Shown here: in pieces, positions 29,179 to 42,784 of the stretch
Layout: each line of letters starts with the position of its first letter
Numbering within the stretch: the first letter of the stretch is position 1
Source: Escherichia phage PNJ1902
DNA: 64,000 nt
Direction: 5' to 3' (one strand)
Sequence record: OK254197.1
Notes under the pieces: generated by a model
What the model was told of the DNA's origin: nothing
What the model saw: only the letters and a program-made list of their open reading frames with translations
The model's database searches: none
Position numbers and translations under genes: made by a program

Positions 29179-29817
29179 ATGACTACTCGTATTTCTAAAA
29201 CTCGTGCTCTGGCAACTATCAAATCTCTGGAAGCTAAAATCCGTAAAGCTACTGAACAGCAGCTTCTGATCGCTGTTGGTGAAGGTAAGGATAAAAACCA
29301 GGTTGTAGTTGGCGCTGCAATCGAAGTAGCCGATCTGTCTACTCGTATTAAGACTGATTTCCAGTCTCTGCTGGATATGATGTCTAAGCGTGATAGTATC
29401 AAATCTGCTCTGATTAAGAGCAATGCAGAAACAATCGTTGAGATTGGTTCTCGTAAGATGACTGTTGCGGAAGCAATTGAAGCTAAGCGTTCTATGGAGC
29501 TTAAAGCTCAGCTGCTGGCTAACATGCGTAAGCAGTTCCATGCCGCTACGGTTAAGTTTAATACGCAGAAAGCACAGTTTGACGCTAAATATGAGCGTTT
29601 GCAGGATAGCATGGCTACCCGCGATAAGAAAACTTCCGAAGATGAAGTTAAAATGCAGCTCAACCTGCTGGAACTCAAGAATACTCCATTCTTGATTGAT
29701 CCGCTGGAACTGGAGAAGCTGATTAAGCAGCATGACGAGGAATACCAGGACTTTGCAACAAATGTTGACTTTGTTCTGTCCGAGTCTAACGCCTCTACCT
29801 TCATTGAAGTAGAGTAA
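29179..29817 (+). CDS. Coiled-coil hypothetical protein
   Basis: 212 aa; overlapping reverse-strand ORFs judged spurious. Confidence 0.55.
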   Translation: MTTRISKTRALATIKSLEAKIRKATEQQLLIAVGEGKDKNQVVVGAAIEVADLSTRIKTDFQSLLDMMSKRDSIKSALIKSNAETIVEIGSRKMTVAEAIEAKRSMELKAQLLANMRKQFHAATVKFNTQKAQFDAKYERLQDSMATRDKKTSEDEVKMQLNLLELKNTPFLIDPLELEKLIKQHDEEYQDFATNVDFVLSESNASTFIEVE

Positions 29818-30200
29818 TAATTTAAAAGCTAGTAAATCGGTAGACGAAAGCCTAAGCATCTTACCTCGCAGCAGCGGTTGAAATACGAGGTTAAATAAGA
29901 CCGCTGACCATACTATAAAGTATAATCTATTGGAGATTATGTTTATTACACCAGCCTTTTAAGCTGACACGTAAGAACAAAGCGTCGTTGATATTACCGA
30001 CACAACTTCAAAGATCAACATTTAAGTATGAAAGCTGAAAAGTTTAAAGAACTCAAACTTCTAAACTTCTAAAGCTAAAAGATGCAAAGTATTCGTTGAT
30101 GATTCAAACCCTAGATCAAAGGTACATGGCTCATAAGATATGGCCTGTGGCGCCTCTAGGCTGTTTATCGGTTTACTAGTTTCACAATTTAAAAATGTAT

Positions 30201-30229
30201 TTGCTAATCTACTAAATTATATGTATAAT
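30201..30229 (+). promoter_or_regulatory. sigma70 promoter (T5 early type)
   Basis: TTGCTA-17-TATAAT. Confidence 0.65.
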
Positions 30230-30259
30230 ATATTTTTAAATTGATGAAACGAGGCTATT

Positions 30260-30577
30260 ATGACTTTTCATATTTTGATTGATGATGTGCGTAATCTTCA
30301 CGGAATGGACATTATCATTCGAACCCCAGAAGCCGCTGTAGAGTTTCTGAATAAAACTGATACCACAGGCCATTTTGTTTATATGGATAATGACTTGGCT
30401 GTAGATGGTATGGAAGGTTATCAAATTCTTCGTTTACTCTTAGAATTTGGGCAGAGACCAAAGAAAGTGGTACTAGTAACCTCGAACCCAGTAGCTAAGC
30501 AAAATATGCGTAATGATTTGCTTGACTTAGGGTATAAAGAAAATCCCAATCGTGTTGAATATGATTGGCAGGAGTAA
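30260..30577 (+). CDS. Stand-alone receiver (CheY-like) domain protein
   Basis: 105 aa; DD near N-terminus, central Asp, VVLVTS and downstream Lys consistent with receiver fold. Confidence 0.4.
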   Translation: MTFHILIDDVRNLHGMDIIIRTPEAAVEFLNKTDTTGHFVYMDNDLAVDGMEGYQILRLLLEFGQRPKKVVLVTSNPVAKQNMRNDLLDLGYKENPNRVEYDWQE

Positions 30578-30582
30578 AAAGA

Positions 30583-31032
30583 ATGAAGGCAGCTTTGCTT
30601 TTAGTAGCTGCCCTTACCTTCAGCTTTAGTAGTCAGGCATCGCACGATGCAAAAGAAATAGATTGCATTGCTAAAAATATCTATTTCGAGAGTCGTGGTG
30701 AGGGCATAAAGGGAATGACGGCGATTGCACATGTTACTAAAAACCGTGTAAACTCCGGTAAATTCCCAGATTCCTACTGTAAAGTAGTATATCAGTCTAA
30801 CCAGTTCTCTTGGGTATCTAAGAGACCAAAAGTTGATAAAACCGATGAGGCTTGGCAAACAGCCAAGAATTTAGCTAGAGTGATATACTACGTTGATTTA
30901 CCACAAGATCCTACACATGGAGCACTATACTTCCATAGTGGTAAAGATAAACCTTATTGGACAAAGAAGTTTAAGAAAACAACTAAGATTAAGGGACATA
31001 CGTTTTATAAACCTGTTGTCACTAAAACTTAA
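30583..31032 (+). CDS. Secreted SleB-like cell-wall hydrolase
   Basis: ~149 aa from ATG 30583; signal peptide then NIYFESRGEG...AHV..NR motif. Confidence 0.6.
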   Translation: MKAALLLVAALTFSFSSQASHDAKEIDCIAKNIYFESRGEGIKGMTAIAHVTKNRVNSGKFPDSYCKVVYQSNQFSWVSKRPKVDKTDEAWQTAKNLARVIYYVDLPQDPTHGALYFHSGKDKPYWTKKFKKTTKIKGHTFYKPVVTKT

Positions 31033-31040
31033 AAATTTAC

Positions 31041-31069
31041 TTGCTTAAATACTTAAATTTCTGTATAAT
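31041..31069 (+). promoter_or_regulatory. sigma70 promoter (T5 early type)
   Basis: TTGCTT-17-TATAAT. Confidence 0.65.
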
Positions 31070-31100
31070 ACTTCCATAAACTAATGAGAGGAAGCGAAAT

Positions 31101-31271
31101 ATGAAATCAGTTGTAATTATTGGTGTTAACACTCGCGGTATTCGTACTACGAAAACTGTTAAAACATCTAACGTGGCTGAAATTACTACTAACCCTAAAA
31201 AGTTTGATTTCGCCAAAGTCTCGGCAGTTATGACAGAACAATCTTTTAACCAAGCGTTAGGAATGAAATAA
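31101..31271 (+). CDS. Small hypothetical protein
   Basis: 56 aa ORF with RBS GAGGAAG, below 60-aa table cutoff. Confidence 0.4.
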   Translation: MKSVVIIGVNTRGIRTTKTVKTSNVAEITTNPKKFDFAKVSAVMTEQSFNQALGMK

Positions 31272-31714
31272 TGGAAGAGAATATTTTAGATGTTTTGCGT
31301 AGAGCTTTGCAGGATTCTAAGTTTAATGGTTCTGATAAAGAAGTCGCTAAAAGCTACCAGACCATAATCGGGGATCTTCAGCGTATTGATAAAGATTTCA
31401 TCACTTCTGAACAATTTGTGTCTTATCTCAAAGCTCAACTAAAAAGCATTAACCAGATGAAAGCTAAACTTCATGGTCAAGATCTTGATAGTTATAGCTT
31501 GCAGTCTGCTCAGTATGAGTACATTCTAAATAAATGGTTGCAGGAGTATCTGCCTCCTCAGTTATCTGATACTGAGATTCGTAAATACTTTGCAGAATTA
31601 GTTAAGCTAAACCCTGGAATTACAAAGGGTATGCTGATGAAAGCGATTAAGGAAGAATTTCCTGGGCGTTATGATGGCGGTACTGCTGCTCAGATTGCTG
31701 GCGAATTTAATTAA
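31271..31714 (+). CDS. GatB/YqeY-domain protein
   Basis: 147 aa; C-terminal ...MLMKAIKEEFPGRYDGGTAAQIAGEF typical of YqeY family. Confidence 0.5.
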   Translation: MEENILDVLRRALQDSKFNGSDKEVAKSYQTIIGDLQRIDKDFITSEQFVSYLKAQLKSINQMKAKLHGQDLDSYSLQSAQYEYILNKWLQEYLPPQLSDTEIRKYFAELVKLNPGITKGMLMKAIKEEFPGRYDGGTAAQIAGEFN

Positions 31715-31722
31715 AAATTTAT

Positions 31723-31751
31723 TTGCTAAATGCCTTTAAATTCTGTATAAT
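31723..31751 (+). promoter_or_regulatory. sigma70 promoter (T5 early type)
   Basis: TTGCTA-17-TATAAT; fires into ~800-bp ORF-free segment. Confidence 0.7.
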
Positions 31752-31973
31752 ATATTCATAAATTAGGGAACAGCGAGCCGATTACGCTGAGTGCAGAATC
31801 CCAACCGGAGCGCATTGAATAGAGTCGGTGGGTTAGTTGTAAAACTAGTACACAGGGGGCGGCAATCCCGGTTAGTGGCTAGAACGTGTAAAATGAGGCG
31901 TCTGAAACCTCTCCCCTAAACTCTTCTCTAATTTATAAATAGTGGGGTGTGGAAATCACTTATGTAGTAACAC

Positions 31974-32047
31974 TGCCGTCCTAGTATAATTGGTATTATC
32001 AAGCCGTAACTGGTGGAAGATGTAGGTTCGAATCCTACGGTCGGTAA
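31974..32047 (+). ncRNA. tRNA-like element (degenerate)
   Basis: GTAGGTTCGAATCCTAC T-arm and 6/7 bp acceptor pairing, tRNA-sized, but no clean D or anticodon arm. Confidence 0.25.
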
Positions 32048-32548
32048 GAACTGGATAACTGGTGCTTTTAATGTAAAAGCTTCCGAGGTTAGTTGCGCAC
32101 TGCCTAAACCACGCGGTAGTTGGTTCCAGACTAGCCAACCAGTCTGCTGAATAGTTTTATTACGATTTAACTATGTCCAGACTAAAGAAGAACTTTAGAA
32201 GGTATTCTAGGATAGTGAAGTTCTTTCTCCATATCGGAGTAGTTTTTCAAGCTATCCACAAAGTGGGAAATGCTGACATGAGAGATGTCACTAATGGTGC
32301 ACAATAGCACAGGTAATTCGCGATAATTCCTGTTGAGTAGCAGCAAAAGGCGGGAAGTCATGACCCCAAGCCTAACCGAGTCCTCAATATACCGCAGGAC
32401 ATAACCACTAAGTCACCCTGACTTAAACTGGAAAATAATAGACGTTACCGTATTTTGTCTTGAAATACTTAATGAGTGAGACTTATGACTCTCCCGGTAT
32501 CGTCTGTATTTTTAAGAGTTTTTACGAGAGTTCTTAAAAATACTTAAA

Positions 32549-36836: not shown

Positions 36837-36913
36837 GGGGGTGTAATCGAATTGGCATAGGTACTGGACTTAAAATTCAGGTTTTGTGGGTTCGAATCCC
36901 ACCACCCCTACCA
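36837..36913 (+). tRNA. tRNA with apparent UAA anticodon but class I (short variable arm) architecture
   Basis: Acceptor GGGGGTG/CACCCCT, anticodon stem CTGGA/TTCAG loop CTTAAAA, 5-nt variable loop, T-arm GTGGG-TTCGAAT-CCCAC, CCA encoded. Confidence 0.45.
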
Positions 36914-39670: not shown

Positions 39671-39791
39671 ATTCTAGCGTGGTTGATGGGGAAACCAGCT
39701 TGGCTAGGGCAGAAGCTCGTTCGATTCGAGTGAAAGAATGGTTCTCGTAAGTCCGCACAAGTGATAACAGGTTCGAGTCCTGTCTAGAATG
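39671..39791 (+). ncRNA. tRNA-like cloverleaf with ~48-nt insertion in the anticodon loop
   Basis: Perfect 7-bp acceptor ATTCTAG/CTAGAAT, D stem TGGT/ACCA, anticodon stem GCTTG/CAAGT enclosing 55 nt, T-arm ACAGG-TTCGAGT-CCTGT. Confidence 0.4.
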
Positions 39792-40972: not shown

Positions 40973-41473
40973 ATGAAGGTAGCTAAAAATGGGAGAAAAG
41001 ATAACTTAAATGAGTTAGAAATATTCCTCCACAATAACAAACTAGACGTAACCGCTAGTAATTACATGCAAATAGCTCTATGGTATAATGGGTATATAGT
41101 TAGGAAGGCCAATCCTAGTAAGGATAAGAAGTCAAATACATACCAAAAGAGACTAGAGCATAGCTATCAAAGATCCCTAAGAGTAGTACAGCTTTATTGT
41201 TATATCAATAATATAAATAATAAGCTGGGATATATTTATATAATATCTAATCCAGCTTTTCCAGGCTGGTTTAAAGTAGGAGCAGCCAAAGATGCTGAGA
41301 CTAGATTAAATACCTATCAAACATACTCCCCTTTTCGGGACTATGTATTAGAGTATTATAAACTAGTAGATAATTATGAACTCAAAGAAAAAGAAATCCT
41401 AAGTTCTTTTTCATCTAGAAATAATGAGTGGGTTCATGCTCCACTTGAAGAAATAATTGCTTGCGTGGCGTAA
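40973..41473 (+). CDS. T5orf172-domain (GIY-YIG-like) protein
   Basis: 166 aa; GYIYIISNP...KVGAA...RLNTYQT motif; 3' end overlaps tRNA-Leu start by ~15 nt. Confidence 0.55.
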   Translation: MKVAKNGRKDNLNELEIFLHNNKLDVTASNYMQIALWYNGYIVRKANPSKDKKSNTYQKRLEHSYQRSLRVVQLYCYINNINNKLGYIYIISNPAFPGWFKVGAAKDAETRLNTYQTYSPFRDYVLEYYKLVDNYELKEKEILSSFSSRNNEWVHAPLEEIIACVA

Positions 41474-41541
41474 TTGGTAGACGCGCGATCCTTAGGAGTT
41501 CGTGTTAATTCGTGTGGGTTCGAGTCCCTCCGCAAGCACCA
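41459..41541 (+). tRNA. tRNA-Leu (anticodon UAG), class II
   Basis: Perfect acceptor GCTTGCG/CGCAAGC, Leu-type D arm, loop CTTAGGA, long variable arm, A73, CCA. Confidence 0.55.
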
Positions 41542-41653: not shown

Positions 41654-41744
41654 GGAAGAGCAAATCGAATTGGCGACGAAAACCGCTTGGAAAGTGGCTG
41701 ACTGGTAAAACGGCTTGAGAGTTCAAATCTCTCCTCTTCCGCCA
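41654..41744 (+). tRNA. tRNA-Ser (anticodon GGA), class II
   Basis: Acceptor GGAAGAG/CTCTTCC, loop TTGGAAA, ~18-nt variable arm, T-arm GAGAG-TTCAAAT-CTCTC, G73, CCA. Confidence 0.5.
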
Positions 41745-41757
41745 AACAATTTATATG

Positions 41758-41851
41758 GTAGGTCAATCCAACGGCTGGCGCTGGACTCCGACTTGAAATC
41801 GGTTGATCGTAGTGATACGGTGTAAGGGTTCGATCCCCTTACCTACCTCCA
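41758..41851 (+). tRNA. tRNA-Ser (anticodon UGA), class II
   Basis: Perfect acceptor GGTAGGT/ACCTACC, loop CTTGAAA, long variable arm, T-loop TTCGATC, CCA. Confidence 0.5.
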
Positions 41852-41856
41852 AATCT

Positions 41857-41988
41857 TGAAGTATGCCGGAATTGGTAGACGGGGCTGCCTAAAAGGTTTA
41901 TAGAGAACATCCACTCTCTACAACATACCTCATAAAGCGGCTGAGATAAATGGTCTATCTCGTGAAGGTTCAAGTCCTTCTGCTTCTT
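41857..41988 (+). ncRNA. Class II tRNA-like cloverleaf with ~41-nt insertion in the anticodon loop
   Basis: Acceptor TGAAGTA/TGCTTCT (6/7, U1-U72), U8-G9, Leu-type D arm, anticodon stem GCTGC/GCGGC enclosing 48 nt, variable hairpin GAGATA...TATCTC, T-arm GAAGG-TTCAAGT-CCTTC; no encoded CCA. Confidence 0.4.
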
Positions 41989-42102
41989 GATACATCTATG
42001 GCTCAAAGTGTAACGGTGCTATTTGATGCTCTTAGTAAGACTTCCCCGACATGCGTTCGGGAGTAAGCTGCTAAGGCTAGGGTAGAAGAGTTTCGGAGAG
42101 CC

Positions 42103-42222
42103 GCCACAATTGAAAATTCGTACTCGTCTTGAGCTGCGTGCAATAGGAGATAACTTGATTAGTATTCTAGAACATGCTAATTGAGGAAGGTTTCGCTAAC
42201 CCTGCGAGTTTTCAATTGTGGC
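42103..42222 (+). ncRNA. Hairpin-closed structured element abutting tRNA-His
   Basis: 14-bp perfect inverted repeat GCCACAATTGAAAA/TTTTCAATTGTGGC enclosing ~92 nt; right arm overlaps tRNA-His 5' end. Confidence 0.3.
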
Positions 42223-42692: not shown

Positions 42693-42768
42693 GCGGTTAA
42701 GCACACGGGTTGTGCCGCAGGCCTTCCAAGCCTCGCTGAGTAGGGTTCGATTCCCTCTAGCCGCTCCA
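42693..42768 (+). tRNA. tRNA-Gly (anticodon UCC)
   Basis: Anticodon arm GGCCTTCCAAGCC as in E. coli tRNA-Gly(UCC), 3' end GCTCCA. Confidence 0.6.
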
Positions 42769-42784
42769 ACTTTAAGGAAACGTT

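What the first reader, a model, noticed from the sequence alone, without database searches (positions are those of the whole stretch)
41857..41988. Second tRNA-like cloverleaf (class II, Leu-type D arm) with a ~41-nt anticodon-loop insertion and no encoded CCA
The acceptor pairs 6/7 with an unpaired 1:72, followed by U8-G9 and a Leu-like D arm (CCG-GAATTGGTAGA-CGG). The anticodon stem (GCTGC/GCGGC) encloses 48 nt. A long variable-arm hairpin (GAGATA...TATCTC) and a T-arm (GAAGG-TTCAAGT-CCTTC) follow. Unlike nearly all neighbouring tRNA genes, it lacks an encoded 3' CCA. The 3' edge of the insert reads CTCATAAA, reminiscent of a CAU anticodon loop. Two such elements in one cluster argue against chance.
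Basis: seen in the sequence. Interest (0 to 1): 0.8.

Follow-up and report, generated by a model that had tools for sequence, protein, structure and literature searches.

The report
Known phage T5 tRNA-like RNA1
This is the counterpart, in a T5-like phage, of the already annotated T5/BF23 "RNA1": a leucine-tRNA-shaped small RNA whose anticodon loop is replaced by a conserved rod-like hairpin, so it cannot decode codons, and its job is still unknown.

Summary
The cloverleaf at 41857-41988 is real. Across 23 distinct homologues, 97% of predicted pairs hold and 14 of 35 pairs show compensatory changes.

The window is a T5-like phage. The element aligns with the misc_RNA "rna1" of T5 (NC_005859) and BF23 (NC_042564), annotated "tRNA-like (stable) RNA with unknown functions". 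The entity is therefore already known.

The 48 nt enclosed by the anticodon stem are neither an intron nor a loose loop insertion. They form two further covarying helices capped by a nearly invariant 8-nt loop, ACAUCC(A/G)C. No anticodon is conserved: the "CAU" motif is absent from the other lineages, and ARAGORN in intron mode calls Phe(aaa), Leu(taa) or Val(aac) depending on the phage.

All 21 ARAGORN-called tRNA genes in the window encode CCA. This element does not.

My best reading is a tRNA-Leu-derived, non-decoding tRNA mimic. I infer that the tRNA body supplies processing and stability, while the extended arm and the invariant variable loop are the working surfaces. The partner is unknown; a decoy for tRNA-binding host factors is an untested possibility.

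It is found only in enterobacterial T5-like phages. T5 mutants lacking the region are viable.

The parts
41855..41991 (+). Whole RNA1 orthologue as matched by the family covariance model. The cloverleaf proper is 41857-41988. By alignment, the T5 annotation would run from 41855 to 41999.
   Evidence: cmsearch 168 bits, E 1e-50. Alignment to T5 rna1 30501-30644.
41857..41863 (+). Acceptor stem, 5' strand. 41857 is an unpaired U (tRNA position 1); 41858-41863 are paired.
   Evidence: All 12 acceptor columns vary and 97% of cells stay paired; 4 of 6 pairs show compensatory changes.
41864..41883 (+). U8-G9, D arm (stem CCG/CGG, loop GAAUUGGUAGA with G18 G19) and G26. The D loop matches that of the phage's own tRNA-Leu(UAG).
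   Evidence: Invariant or nearly so in 23 homologues. Compared by eye with the tRNA-Leu(UAG) at 41459-41541 as printed.
41884..41888 (+). Anticodon-type stem, 5' strand (GCUGC); pairs with 41937-41941.
   Evidence: 3 of 5 pairs show compensatory changes (G-C to A-U, G-C to U-A, C-G to G-C).
41889..41900 (+). 5' side of the arm extension: internal loop 1 (41889-41893), helix 2 (41894-41897, pairs with 41927-41930), internal loop 2 (41898-41900).
   Evidence: Helix 2 has 2 of 4 pairs with compensatory changes. The A residues of the internal loops are conserved.
41901..41920 (+). Apical hairpin: helix 3 (41901-41906 with 41915-41920) and the 8-nt loop ACAUCCAC (41907-41914).
   Evidence: Helix 3 has 4 of 6 pairs with compensatory changes. 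In the loop only 1 of 8 columns varies (A to G in T5) across 23 homologues, including those retrieved with a pattern that left the loop free.
41921..41941 (+). 3' side of the extension (internal loop 2 at 41921-41926, helix 2 at 41927-41930, internal loop 1 at 41931-41936) and the 3' strand of the anticodon-type stem (41937-41941).
   Evidence: The motif is not conserved between lineages.
41943..41961 (+). Long variable arm (class II): 6-bp stem and 7-nt loop AAUGGUC within the invariant block UAAAUGGUCUA.
   Evidence: 100% paired; the central pair covaries (A-U, U-A, C-G). In the loop 1 of 7 columns varies.
41964..41980 (+). T arm: GAAGG / UUCAAGU / CCUUC.
   Evidence: 100% paired. The T loop varies only at 3 of its 7 columns (3 variable columns; which ones read off the alignment).
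41981..41988 (+). Acceptor stem 3' strand (41981-41986), the mismatch partner U41987, and discriminator U41988. No CCA follows.
41989..41999 (+). 3' trailer running up to the 5' end of the RNAI orthologue. The T5 annotation includes it in RNA1.

Best explanation
The element is the orthologue of the T5/BF23 gene rna1 (RNA1). It is a small non-coding RNA of about 130-145 nt that descends from a class II tRNA-Leu but no longer decodes.

Shown here:
- It keeps the acceptor stem, D arm, long variable arm and T arm, with the elbow nucleotides G18 G19 and U54 U55 C56.
- The 7-nt anticodon loop is replaced by a rod of two extra helices and purine-rich internal loops, capped by a nearly invariant loop, ACAUCC(A/G)C.
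- No anticodon and no CCA are encoded.
- It sits 6 nt after tRNA-Ser(UGA) and 11 nt before RNAI, in a run of closely spaced RNA genes.

Inferred:
- It is co-transcribed with the tRNA cluster.
- It is cut out by the host tRNA-processing enzymes (RNase P at the 5' end, exonucleases or RNase BN at the 3' end), and it is stable because it folds like a tRNA. In other words, it is a natural 'tRNA scaffold'.
- Its function resides in the sequence-constrained surfaces that ordinary tRNAs lack: the apical loop, the conserved internal-loop adenines and the invariant variable-arm loop. These bind a partner in trans.
- The most plausible partner class is a host or phage factor that recognises tRNA shape rather than an anticodon. 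That would make RNA1 a decoy or sponge in host takeover or counter-defence. The partner itself is not identified.
For: Identity:
- The window is 98% identical to T5-like phages.
- The element aligns with T5 rna1, followed by RNAI, RNAIII and tRNA-His in the same order.
- BF23 carries the same annotation.

Structure:
- 97-99% of pair cells are paired, against 40-51% for slid controls. Fourteen of 35 pairs have compensatory changes, distributed over the acceptor stem, the anticodon-type stem, both extension helices and the variable arm.
- RNAalifold and the single-sequence MFE fold give the same architecture.

Selection pattern:
- Stems vary: acceptor 12 of 12 columns, helix 3 8 of 12.
- The apical loop (1 of 8 variable) and the variable loop (1 of 7) are fixed down to 72% overall identity in Klebsiella Sugarlandvirus.

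Non-decoding:
- There is no hit to the Rfam tRNA model or to any other Rfam family.
- Intron-mode ARAGORN gives inconsistent pseudo-anticodons among orthologues.
- There is no CCA, against 21 of 21 for the ARAGORN-called tRNAs of the window.
- The discriminator is U in all but the four Sugarlandvirus copies. From established knowledge, E. coli LeuRS requires A73.

Leu origin: the best non-self hit of the family model is the phage tRNA-Leu(UAG), at 36.7 bits.

Autonomy: in Sugarlandvirus the element is kept without the tRNA-Ser, RNAI and RNAIII neighbours, and the sequence upstream of it differs between phages.

Precedent: T4 species 1 RNA (rnaC) folds into a comparable tRNA-like shape, with a long anticodon-side arm, a long variable-type hairpin and a canonical T arm.
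Against: - No partner or phenotype is known. The annotation says 'unknown functions'.
- T5 mutants lacking the region (T5-123, deletion 29191-32442) are viable. The only cloned piece of that deletion reported to restore growth on PARIS+ cells carries tRNA-Pro, -fMet, -Lys and -Val, not RNA1 (PMC11464382). So RNA1 is dispensable in the laboratory and is not the PARIS suppressor.
- Maturation, the true ends, stability and the absence of aminoacylation are inferred, not measured here. From established knowledge, CCA-less T4 tRNAs receive CCA post-transcriptionally, so a mature CCA end cannot be excluded.
- The folding energy of the single sequence is unremarkable (z = -1.5).
- The complementarities I found for the loops are short enough to be chance: 7 nt to 23S rRNA nt 24-30, and 3 nt between the two invariant loops.
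Confidence: 0.75

Rival explanations
1. It is a functional tRNA gene (Leu, Phe or Met/Ile) interrupted by a ~41-nt intron in the anticodon loop. The intron is spliced out to give a decoding tRNA.
For: ARAGORN in intron mode calls it a tRNA with a 41-nt intron at exactly 41857-41988. One GenBank record annotates the orthologue as tRNA-Leu(taa), 134 nt.
Against: - The called anticodon differs among orthologues (AAA, UAA, AAC), and the intron is placed after loop positions 33, 35, 36, 37 or 39.
- The 'intron' is a covarying extension of the anticodon stem, not a separate domain.
- At 41 nt it is far too short for a group I core, and no Rfam intron family matches.
- The helix-loop pattern is not a bulge-helix-bulge: both strands are unpaired at both junctions.
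- From established knowledge, E. coli has no tRNA splicing endonuclease.
- The curated T5 and BF23 records list it as a 144-nt RNA.
Confidence: 0.03
2. It is a decaying tRNA-Leu pseudogene that picked up junk sequence in its anticodon loop and has no function.
For: It lacks an anticodon and a CCA, it has a 1:72 mismatch, and it is dispensable in laboratory T5 deletion mutants.
Against: It is retained in about 490 records across Tequintavirus-like phages and Sugarlandvirus. Compensatory changes occur in every helix, including the 'junk'. Loops are nearly invariant while stems drift. That pattern indicates purifying selection on an RNA structure and on specific loop sequences.
Confidence: 0.03
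3. It works only in cis, as a processing module of the polycistronic tRNA/stable-RNA transcript. A tRNA-shaped spacer recruits RNase P or other nucleases so that the neighbours (tRNA-Ser, RNAI, RNAIII, tRNA-His) mature properly. The excised RNA itself has no role.
For: It is tightly packed between other processed RNAs, with 6-nt and 11-nt spacers. It has no CCA. From my own knowledge, tRNA-like punctuation and nuclease entry sites are known for the maturation of the T4 tRNA cluster.
Against: A spacer would not need an invariant 8-nt apical loop, an invariant variable loop or a covarying 10-bp arm extension. In Sugarlandvirus the element persists between ORFs without the Tequintavirus neighbours. 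The T5 record calls it a stable RNA.
Confidence: 0.12
4. Conservation is at the DNA level, for example a homing-endonuclease target, a nick site or a promoter/terminator, rather than in an RNA.
For: The T5 tRNA region carries HNH homing endonucleases, and the sequence upstream of the element differs between phages. The terminator-like pattern reported at 41964-41980 is simply the T arm.
Against: Base-pair covariation with changing sequence is the signature of RNA structure, not of a DNA site. No ORF of significance overlaps the element. The number of promoter-like sites in the region is at or below the shuffled expectation.
Confidence: 0.02

Closest known systems
Bacteriophage T5 / BF23 'RNA1' (gene rna1; T5s03 in NC_005859, FIU71_gs06 in NC_042564)
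   Same: It is orthologous. It is 84% identical to T5 over 137 aligned positions. It has the same neighbours downstream (RNAI, RNAIII, tRNA-His) and tRNA-Ser(UGA) upstream, and the same cloverleaf with an extended arm.
   Different: There are only lineage-level differences. These are compensatory changes in the acceptor stem, the anticodon-type stem and helix 3, and an apical loop of ACAUCCAC here versus ACAUCCGC in T5. The small ORF that T5 has between tRNA-Ser1 and RNA1 is absent here.
Bacteriophage T4 species 1 RNA (rnaC) and species 2 RNA (rnaD)
   Same: These are small RNAs of unknown function encoded next to a phage tRNA cluster. rnaC folds into a tRNA-like shape with a greatly elongated anticodon-side arm, a long variable-type hairpin and a canonical T arm (function unknown per PMC3014915 and PMC9697503).
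   Different: There is no detectable homology: the RNA1 covariance model finds nothing in the T4 tRNA region. In the fold, rnaC shows no recognisable Leu-type D arm. This is an analogue, not a family member.
Class II tRNA-Leu (bacterial and phage)
   Same: It shares the acceptor, D arm (3-bp stem, loop with GG), long variable arm and T arm. The family model's best non-self hit is the phage tRNA-Leu(UAG).
   Different: RNA1 has no 7-nt anticodon loop and no anticodon. It has no encoded CCA, it has U73 instead of A73 in most members, and it has a 1:72 mismatch.
Engineered 'tRNA scaffold' RNAs, in which a payload is inserted in place of the anticodon loop for stable expression in E. coli (from my own knowledge: Ponchon and Dardel 2007)
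   Same: The design principle is the same: an intact tRNA body for processing and nuclease resistance, with a foreign structured hairpin grafted onto the anticodon stem.
   Different: This is a natural, evolved molecule. That processing works in the same way here is inferred, not tested.
Intron-containing tRNA genes (group I introns in bacterial/phage tRNAs; bulge-helix-bulge introns in archaea)
   Same: There is extra sequence between the two strands of the anticodon stem, and gene finders in intron mode report it as such.
   Different: There is no catalytic core, no BHB geometry and no conserved anticodon after removal. The extra sequence is itself the conserved, covarying part.

Membership tests
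T5/BF23 RNA1 (rna1) tRNA-like stable RNA | Sequence homology to the annotated T5 and BF23 rna1 genes | tested here: met
   Pairwise alignment with T5 30501-30644. 84% identity over 137 columns. The family covariance model scores the window copy at 168 bits and the T5 copy at 161 bits.
T5/BF23 RNA1 (rna1) tRNA-like stable RNA | Position in the tRNA cluster: after tRNA-Ser(UGA), immediately before RNAI, RNAIII and tRNA-His | tested here: met
   Same order and near-identical downstream sequence.
T5/BF23 RNA1 (rna1) tRNA-like stable RNA | Accumulates as a discrete stable RNA in infected cells | not testable with these tools
   This rests only on the wording of the T5 record ('tRNA-like stable RNA'). 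The primary papers are not in the library.
Canonical decoding tRNA | Cloverleaf with acceptor, D, anticodon and T arms and elbow nucleotides | tested here: met
Canonical decoding tRNA | 7-nt anticodon loop with U33 and a conserved anticodon | tested here: not met
   48 nt are enclosed by the stem. No anticodon is conserved among orthologues.
Canonical decoding tRNA | Reaches the Rfam tRNA (RF00005) gathering score or is called by ARAGORN in default mode | tested here: not met
   No match even at E <= 10. ARAGORN default finds 0 of 23 homologues.
Canonical decoding tRNA | 3' CCA (encoded, as in all other tRNA genes of this phage) and aminoacylation | tested here: inconclusive
   CCA is not encoded, against 21 of 21 ARAGORN-called tRNAs. 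Post-transcriptional CCA addition and charging cannot be tested here.
tRNA gene with a group I intron | Intron of roughly 200 nt or more with a group I catalytic core | tested here: not met
   The extra segment is 41-48 nt. No Rfam intron family matches at E <= 10.
tRNA gene with a bulge-helix-bulge intron | Two 3-nt bulges on opposite strands flanking a 4-bp helix, and exon ligation restoring a conserved anticodon loop | tested here: not met
   Both junctions of the 4-bp helix 2 are two-sided internal loops (5/6 nt and 3/6 nt). The predicted splice positions and anticodons differ among orthologues.
T4 species 1 RNA (rnaC) | Homology to T4 rnaC | tested here: not met
   The RNA1 model gives no hit in the T4 tRNA region at E <= 10. 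Only the overall shape is alike.
tmRNA / bacterial Y-RNA-like tRNA mimics | Match to the tmRNA or Y RNA-like models; a tag reading frame, or a 5'/3' terminal Ro-binding stem | tested here: not met
   ARAGORN reports no tmRNA. No Rfam hit covers the element. The 5' and 3' ends form the acceptor stem, not a Ro-type stem.

The most novel reading that the evidence does not exclude
RNA1 is an evolved anti-defence or takeover decoy. It is a class II tRNA mimic that cannot be cleaved in an anticodon loop. It would use its tRNA body, invariant variable loop and apical loop to titrate a host factor that recognises tRNA shape. One candidate is the PtuAB/Septu/retron-Eco7 type nucleases, which cut the variable region of class II tRNA-Tyr (PMC13096335). 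Alternatively, it could base-pair through CAUCCAC with the conserved 5' end of 23S rRNA (nt 24-30). Either would give the first function for the phage 'tRNA-like stable RNAs' that have been unexplained since the 1970s.
Probability: 0.12. Interest if true: 0.75.

Novelty: already known. Interest (0 to 1): 0.3.

Why it matters
The element itself is not a discovery. The curated T5 and BF23 records already list it as RNA1.

What this analysis adds is a covariation-backed structural model. The model shows that the 'insert' is the selected part of the molecule. It shows that no anticodon exists, so the tRNA-Leu(taa) annotation in a public record and ARAGORN's intron-mode Phe/Leu/Val calls are artefacts. 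It also shows that two loops are sequence-constrained across genera.

Phage tRNA clusters are now recognised as counter-defence hubs: the T5 tRNA-Lys works against PARIS and the T5 tRNA-Tyr against retron-Eco7. The non-decoding tRNA look-alikes in the same clusters (T5 RNA1-3, T4 RNA C/D) are therefore obvious untested candidates. The model says exactly which nucleotides to mutate.

Tried and rejected
**RNA family searches**
- Rfam at gathering and at E <= 10: no family covers the element.

**Intron-bearing tRNA**
- Rejected on inconsistent anticodons and splice positions among 23 orthologues, and on covariation inside the 'intron'.

**Coding**
- Only short, unsupported ORFs overlap the element. 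The 'hypothetical proteins' annotated over it in Klebsiella phages are spurious.

**Conserved protein neighbour**
- The ORFs upstream of RNA1 in T5, JLBYU40, HildyBeyeler and Sugarland are unrelated to one another.

**Targets of the apical loop**
- The exact complement GTGGATGT occurs three times in the window, one of them being the locus itself; 1.45 are expected.
- In E. coli rRNA the only 7-nt Watson-Crick site for the loop is 23S nt 24-30. About 0.5 such sites are expected by chance, by my own estimate.
- Complementarity between the two invariant loops is only 3 nt (by eye).
- I treat all three as leads only.

**Wider distribution**
- The covariance model finds no copy in the tRNA region of a Vibrio T5-like phage or in the T4 tRNA region.
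- A motif scan of 100,044 prokaryotic species genomes gave 14 matches, none confirmed by the model.

**Literature**
- Nine full-text searches found no paper in the held library on T5 RNA1. The original Russian-school papers and Glukhov 2018 are not held.

Full report
**What is there**

- a 6-bp acceptor stem with a U.U mismatch at tRNA position 1:72;
- U8-G9;
- a Leu-type D arm (CCG / GAAUUGGUAGA / CGG);
- a 5-bp anticodon-type stem (GCUGC/GCGGC) enclosing 48 nt;
- a 6-bp variable-arm hairpin;
- a canonical T arm (GAAGG / UUCAAGU / CCUUC);
- no CCA after the discriminator.

ARAGORN in default mode and the Rfam tRNA model skip it, and no other Rfam family matches even at E <= 10. ARAGORN in intron mode calls exactly these coordinates as 'tRNA-Phe(aaa) with a 41-nt intron'. 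All 21 ARAGORN-called tRNA genes of the window end in an encoded CCA. This element and the other tRNA-like element at about 39671-39791 do not.

**Where it comes from**

The window is a T5-like phage (Demerecviridae, Tequintavirus group), 98% identical over the local kilobase to phages such as NBEco002 and STP-SP2. The RefSeq record of T5 annotates three misc_RNAs between tRNA-Ser1(UGA) and tRNA-His:
- rna1, 'RNA1, tRNA-like stable RNA with unknown functions' (30501-30644);
- RNAI;
- RNAIII.

Alignment shows that the finding is the orthologue of rna1. It is followed here by the orthologues of RNAI (42000-42106), RNAIII (42111-42216) and tRNA-His. The curated BF23 tRNA-region record carries the same annotation. 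Other public records either leave the locus blank, lay a hypothetical ORF over it, or call it tRNA-Leu(taa).

**Structure and selection**

blastn finds a homologue in 492 phage records (Salmonella, Escherichia, Klebsiella, Shigella, Citrobacter and other hosts), with identity falling to about 80% in Klebsiella Sugarlandvirus. I collected 23 distinct sequences from three sources:
- IMG/VR motif scans whose patterns left different parts of the molecule unconstrained;
- T5, BF23-like phages, HildyBeyeler and JLBYU40;
- four Sugarlandvirus phages.

I tested a structure with seven helices: acceptor (6 bp), D (3), anticodon-type stem (5), extension helix 2 (4), extension helix 3 (6), variable arm (6) and T (5). 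The results were as follows.
- 97.4% of 805 pair cells are standard pairs, against 40-51% when the 3' partners are slid by 1-3 columns.
- Fourteen of 35 pairs change on both sides, against 1-2 pairs in the slid controls; no shuffle reaches 14 (shuffled mean 9.6).
- No shuffle reaches the observed covariation score.
- RNAalifold, run without my structure, returns the same architecture. So does the MFE fold of the single sequence, although its energy alone is unremarkable (z = -1.5).

Variation is concentrated in the stems: acceptor 12 of 12 columns, helix 3 8 of 12, helix 2 6 of 8. The apical loop ACAUCC(A/G)C (1 of 8 columns variable) and the variable-arm loop (1 of 7) are essentially fixed, and several internal-loop adenines are conserved. 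This is the signature of an RNA whose helices are structural and whose loops are read in a sequence-specific way.

**What it is not**

It is not a tRNA with an intron.
- The putative anticodon and splice position that ARAGORN assigns change from lineage to lineage: Phe-aaa after positions 35, 36 or 37; Leu-taa after 33; Val-aac after 39.
- The segment is far too short for a group I core, and its junctions are two-sided internal loops rather than a bulge-helix-bulge.
- The curated records give the RNA as 144 nt, which includes the extra segment.

It is not a decaying pseudogene, given the compensatory changes and the fixed loops. It is not coding. It is not a DNA-level site.

**Origin and range**

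Apart from the element itself, the family covariance model (R1) scores highest in the window on the phage tRNA-Leu(UAG), at 36.7 bits. The D loop matches that tRNA's, so RNA1 is a tRNA-Leu derivative. In all but the four Sugarlandvirus copies the discriminator is U, whereas E. coli LeuRS needs A73 (established knowledge). Together with the missing CCA, this argues against charging.

The model finds no copy in three places:
- the 24-kb tRNA region of a Vibrio T5-like phage;
- the T4 tRNA region;
- the 14 prokaryotic genome contigs that matched a loop-motif scan of 100,044 species.

The family therefore appears confined to enterobacterial T5-like phages. In Sugarlandvirus it persists between ORFs, without the Tequintavirus RNA neighbours. 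The ORFs upstream of it differ among phages. It therefore behaves as an autonomous unit.

**How it most likely works**

Shown: a conserved L-shape-competent tRNA body, a covarying rod in place of the anticodon loop, fixed apical and variable loops, no anticodon, no encoded CCA, and tight packing among processed RNAs.

Inferred: the RNA is co-transcribed with the cluster, released by RNase P and 3' trimming, and stabilised by its tRNA fold. It then acts in trans through the constrained surfaces. This is the natural equivalent of the engineered tRNA scaffold. T4 species 1 RNA (rnaC) has a similar overall shape and an equally unknown role (PMC3014915, PMC9697503).

The nature of the partner is open. 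Because host defences attack tRNAs, a tRNA-shape decoy is the most attractive idea. PARIS cuts tRNA-Lys. Retron-Eco7 and Septu cut the variable region of class II tRNA-Tyr, and T5 counters them with its own tRNAs (PMC11464382, PMC13096335). The decoy idea is nevertheless untested.

Two facts limit it. The T5-123 mutant (deletion 29191-32442), which lacks RNA1, is viable. And the only cloned piece of that deletion reported to rescue growth on PARIS+ cells carries tRNA-Pro, -fMet, -Lys and -Val, not RNA1.

The apical loop is complementary over 7 nt to 23S rRNA nt 24-30. A match of that length is expected about 0.5 times by chance in the rRNAs, so I treat it only as a lead. A purely cis-acting processing role is the main rival (about 0.12).

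**Verdict**

The element is already known as T5/BF23 RNA1. Interest is low to moderate. The value lies in the structural model, in correcting mis-annotations, and in pointing to specific nucleotides to test for a function that has been missing for decades.

Noticed in passing
window 42000-42106 and 42111-42216: These are the orthologues of T5 RNAI (107 nt) and RNAIII (106 nt), annotated 'stable RNA with unknown functions'. RNAI has a 5-bp terminal stem GGCUC/GAGCC followed by GCCA, like a minimal RNase P substrate. RNAIII folds into a closed multi-hairpin structure with z = -3.2. Neither matches any Rfam family.
   Followed up: partly
By its position in the cluster it appears to be the counterpart of T5/BF23 RNA2 ('tRNA-like stable RNA with unknown functions'); I did not align it to T5 rna2. 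It has a class I-type body with a different extended anticodon arm, no CCA, and no sequence similarity to RNA1's extension.
   Followed up: partly
window 41654-41745 and 41757-41850: ARAGORN and the Rfam tRNA model (at the gathering score) miss the two tRNA-Ser genes that T5 annotates as Ser2(GGA) and Ser1(UGA). The second scores only on the tRNA-Sec model (38.3 bits, below the cut-off of 47). Both end in CCA. T5-like phage tRNA counts from automatic tools are therefore underestimates.
   Followed up: partly
window 42693-42769; L036 12001-12116: A tRNA-Gly(UCC)-like gene (anticodon loop CUUCCAA, ends in CCA, unusual D arm) directly follows tRNA-Gln(UUG). Neither ARAGORN nor Rfam calls it. It corresponds in position to T5 tRNA-Gly1. 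It is 76% identical to an unannotated stretch in Vibrio T5-like phages (D11 and relatives).
   Followed up: partly
window 36837-36913: ARAGORN calls a 77-nt tRNA 'Leu(taa)', but it has a short 5-nt variable loop (class I shape). That is atypical for a bacterial-type tRNA-Leu, so its amino-acid identity is uncertain. T5 has the homing endonuclease hegA at the corresponding place.
   Followed up: no
L003 532-660 (Klebsiella phage Sugarland); similar in the K7_rec phages: A 'hypothetical protein' CDS is annotated across the 5' half of the RNA1 orthologue. It is most likely a spurious ORF call over a non-coding RNA gene.
   Followed up: partly
L039 (Klebsiella phage vB_Kpn_3) 52-188: This RNA1 copy is a mosaic. 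It has a Sugarlandvirus-type acceptor stem but the anticodon-type stem and 5' extension of the window-type lineage. That suggests recombination within the gene between phage genera.
   Followed up: no
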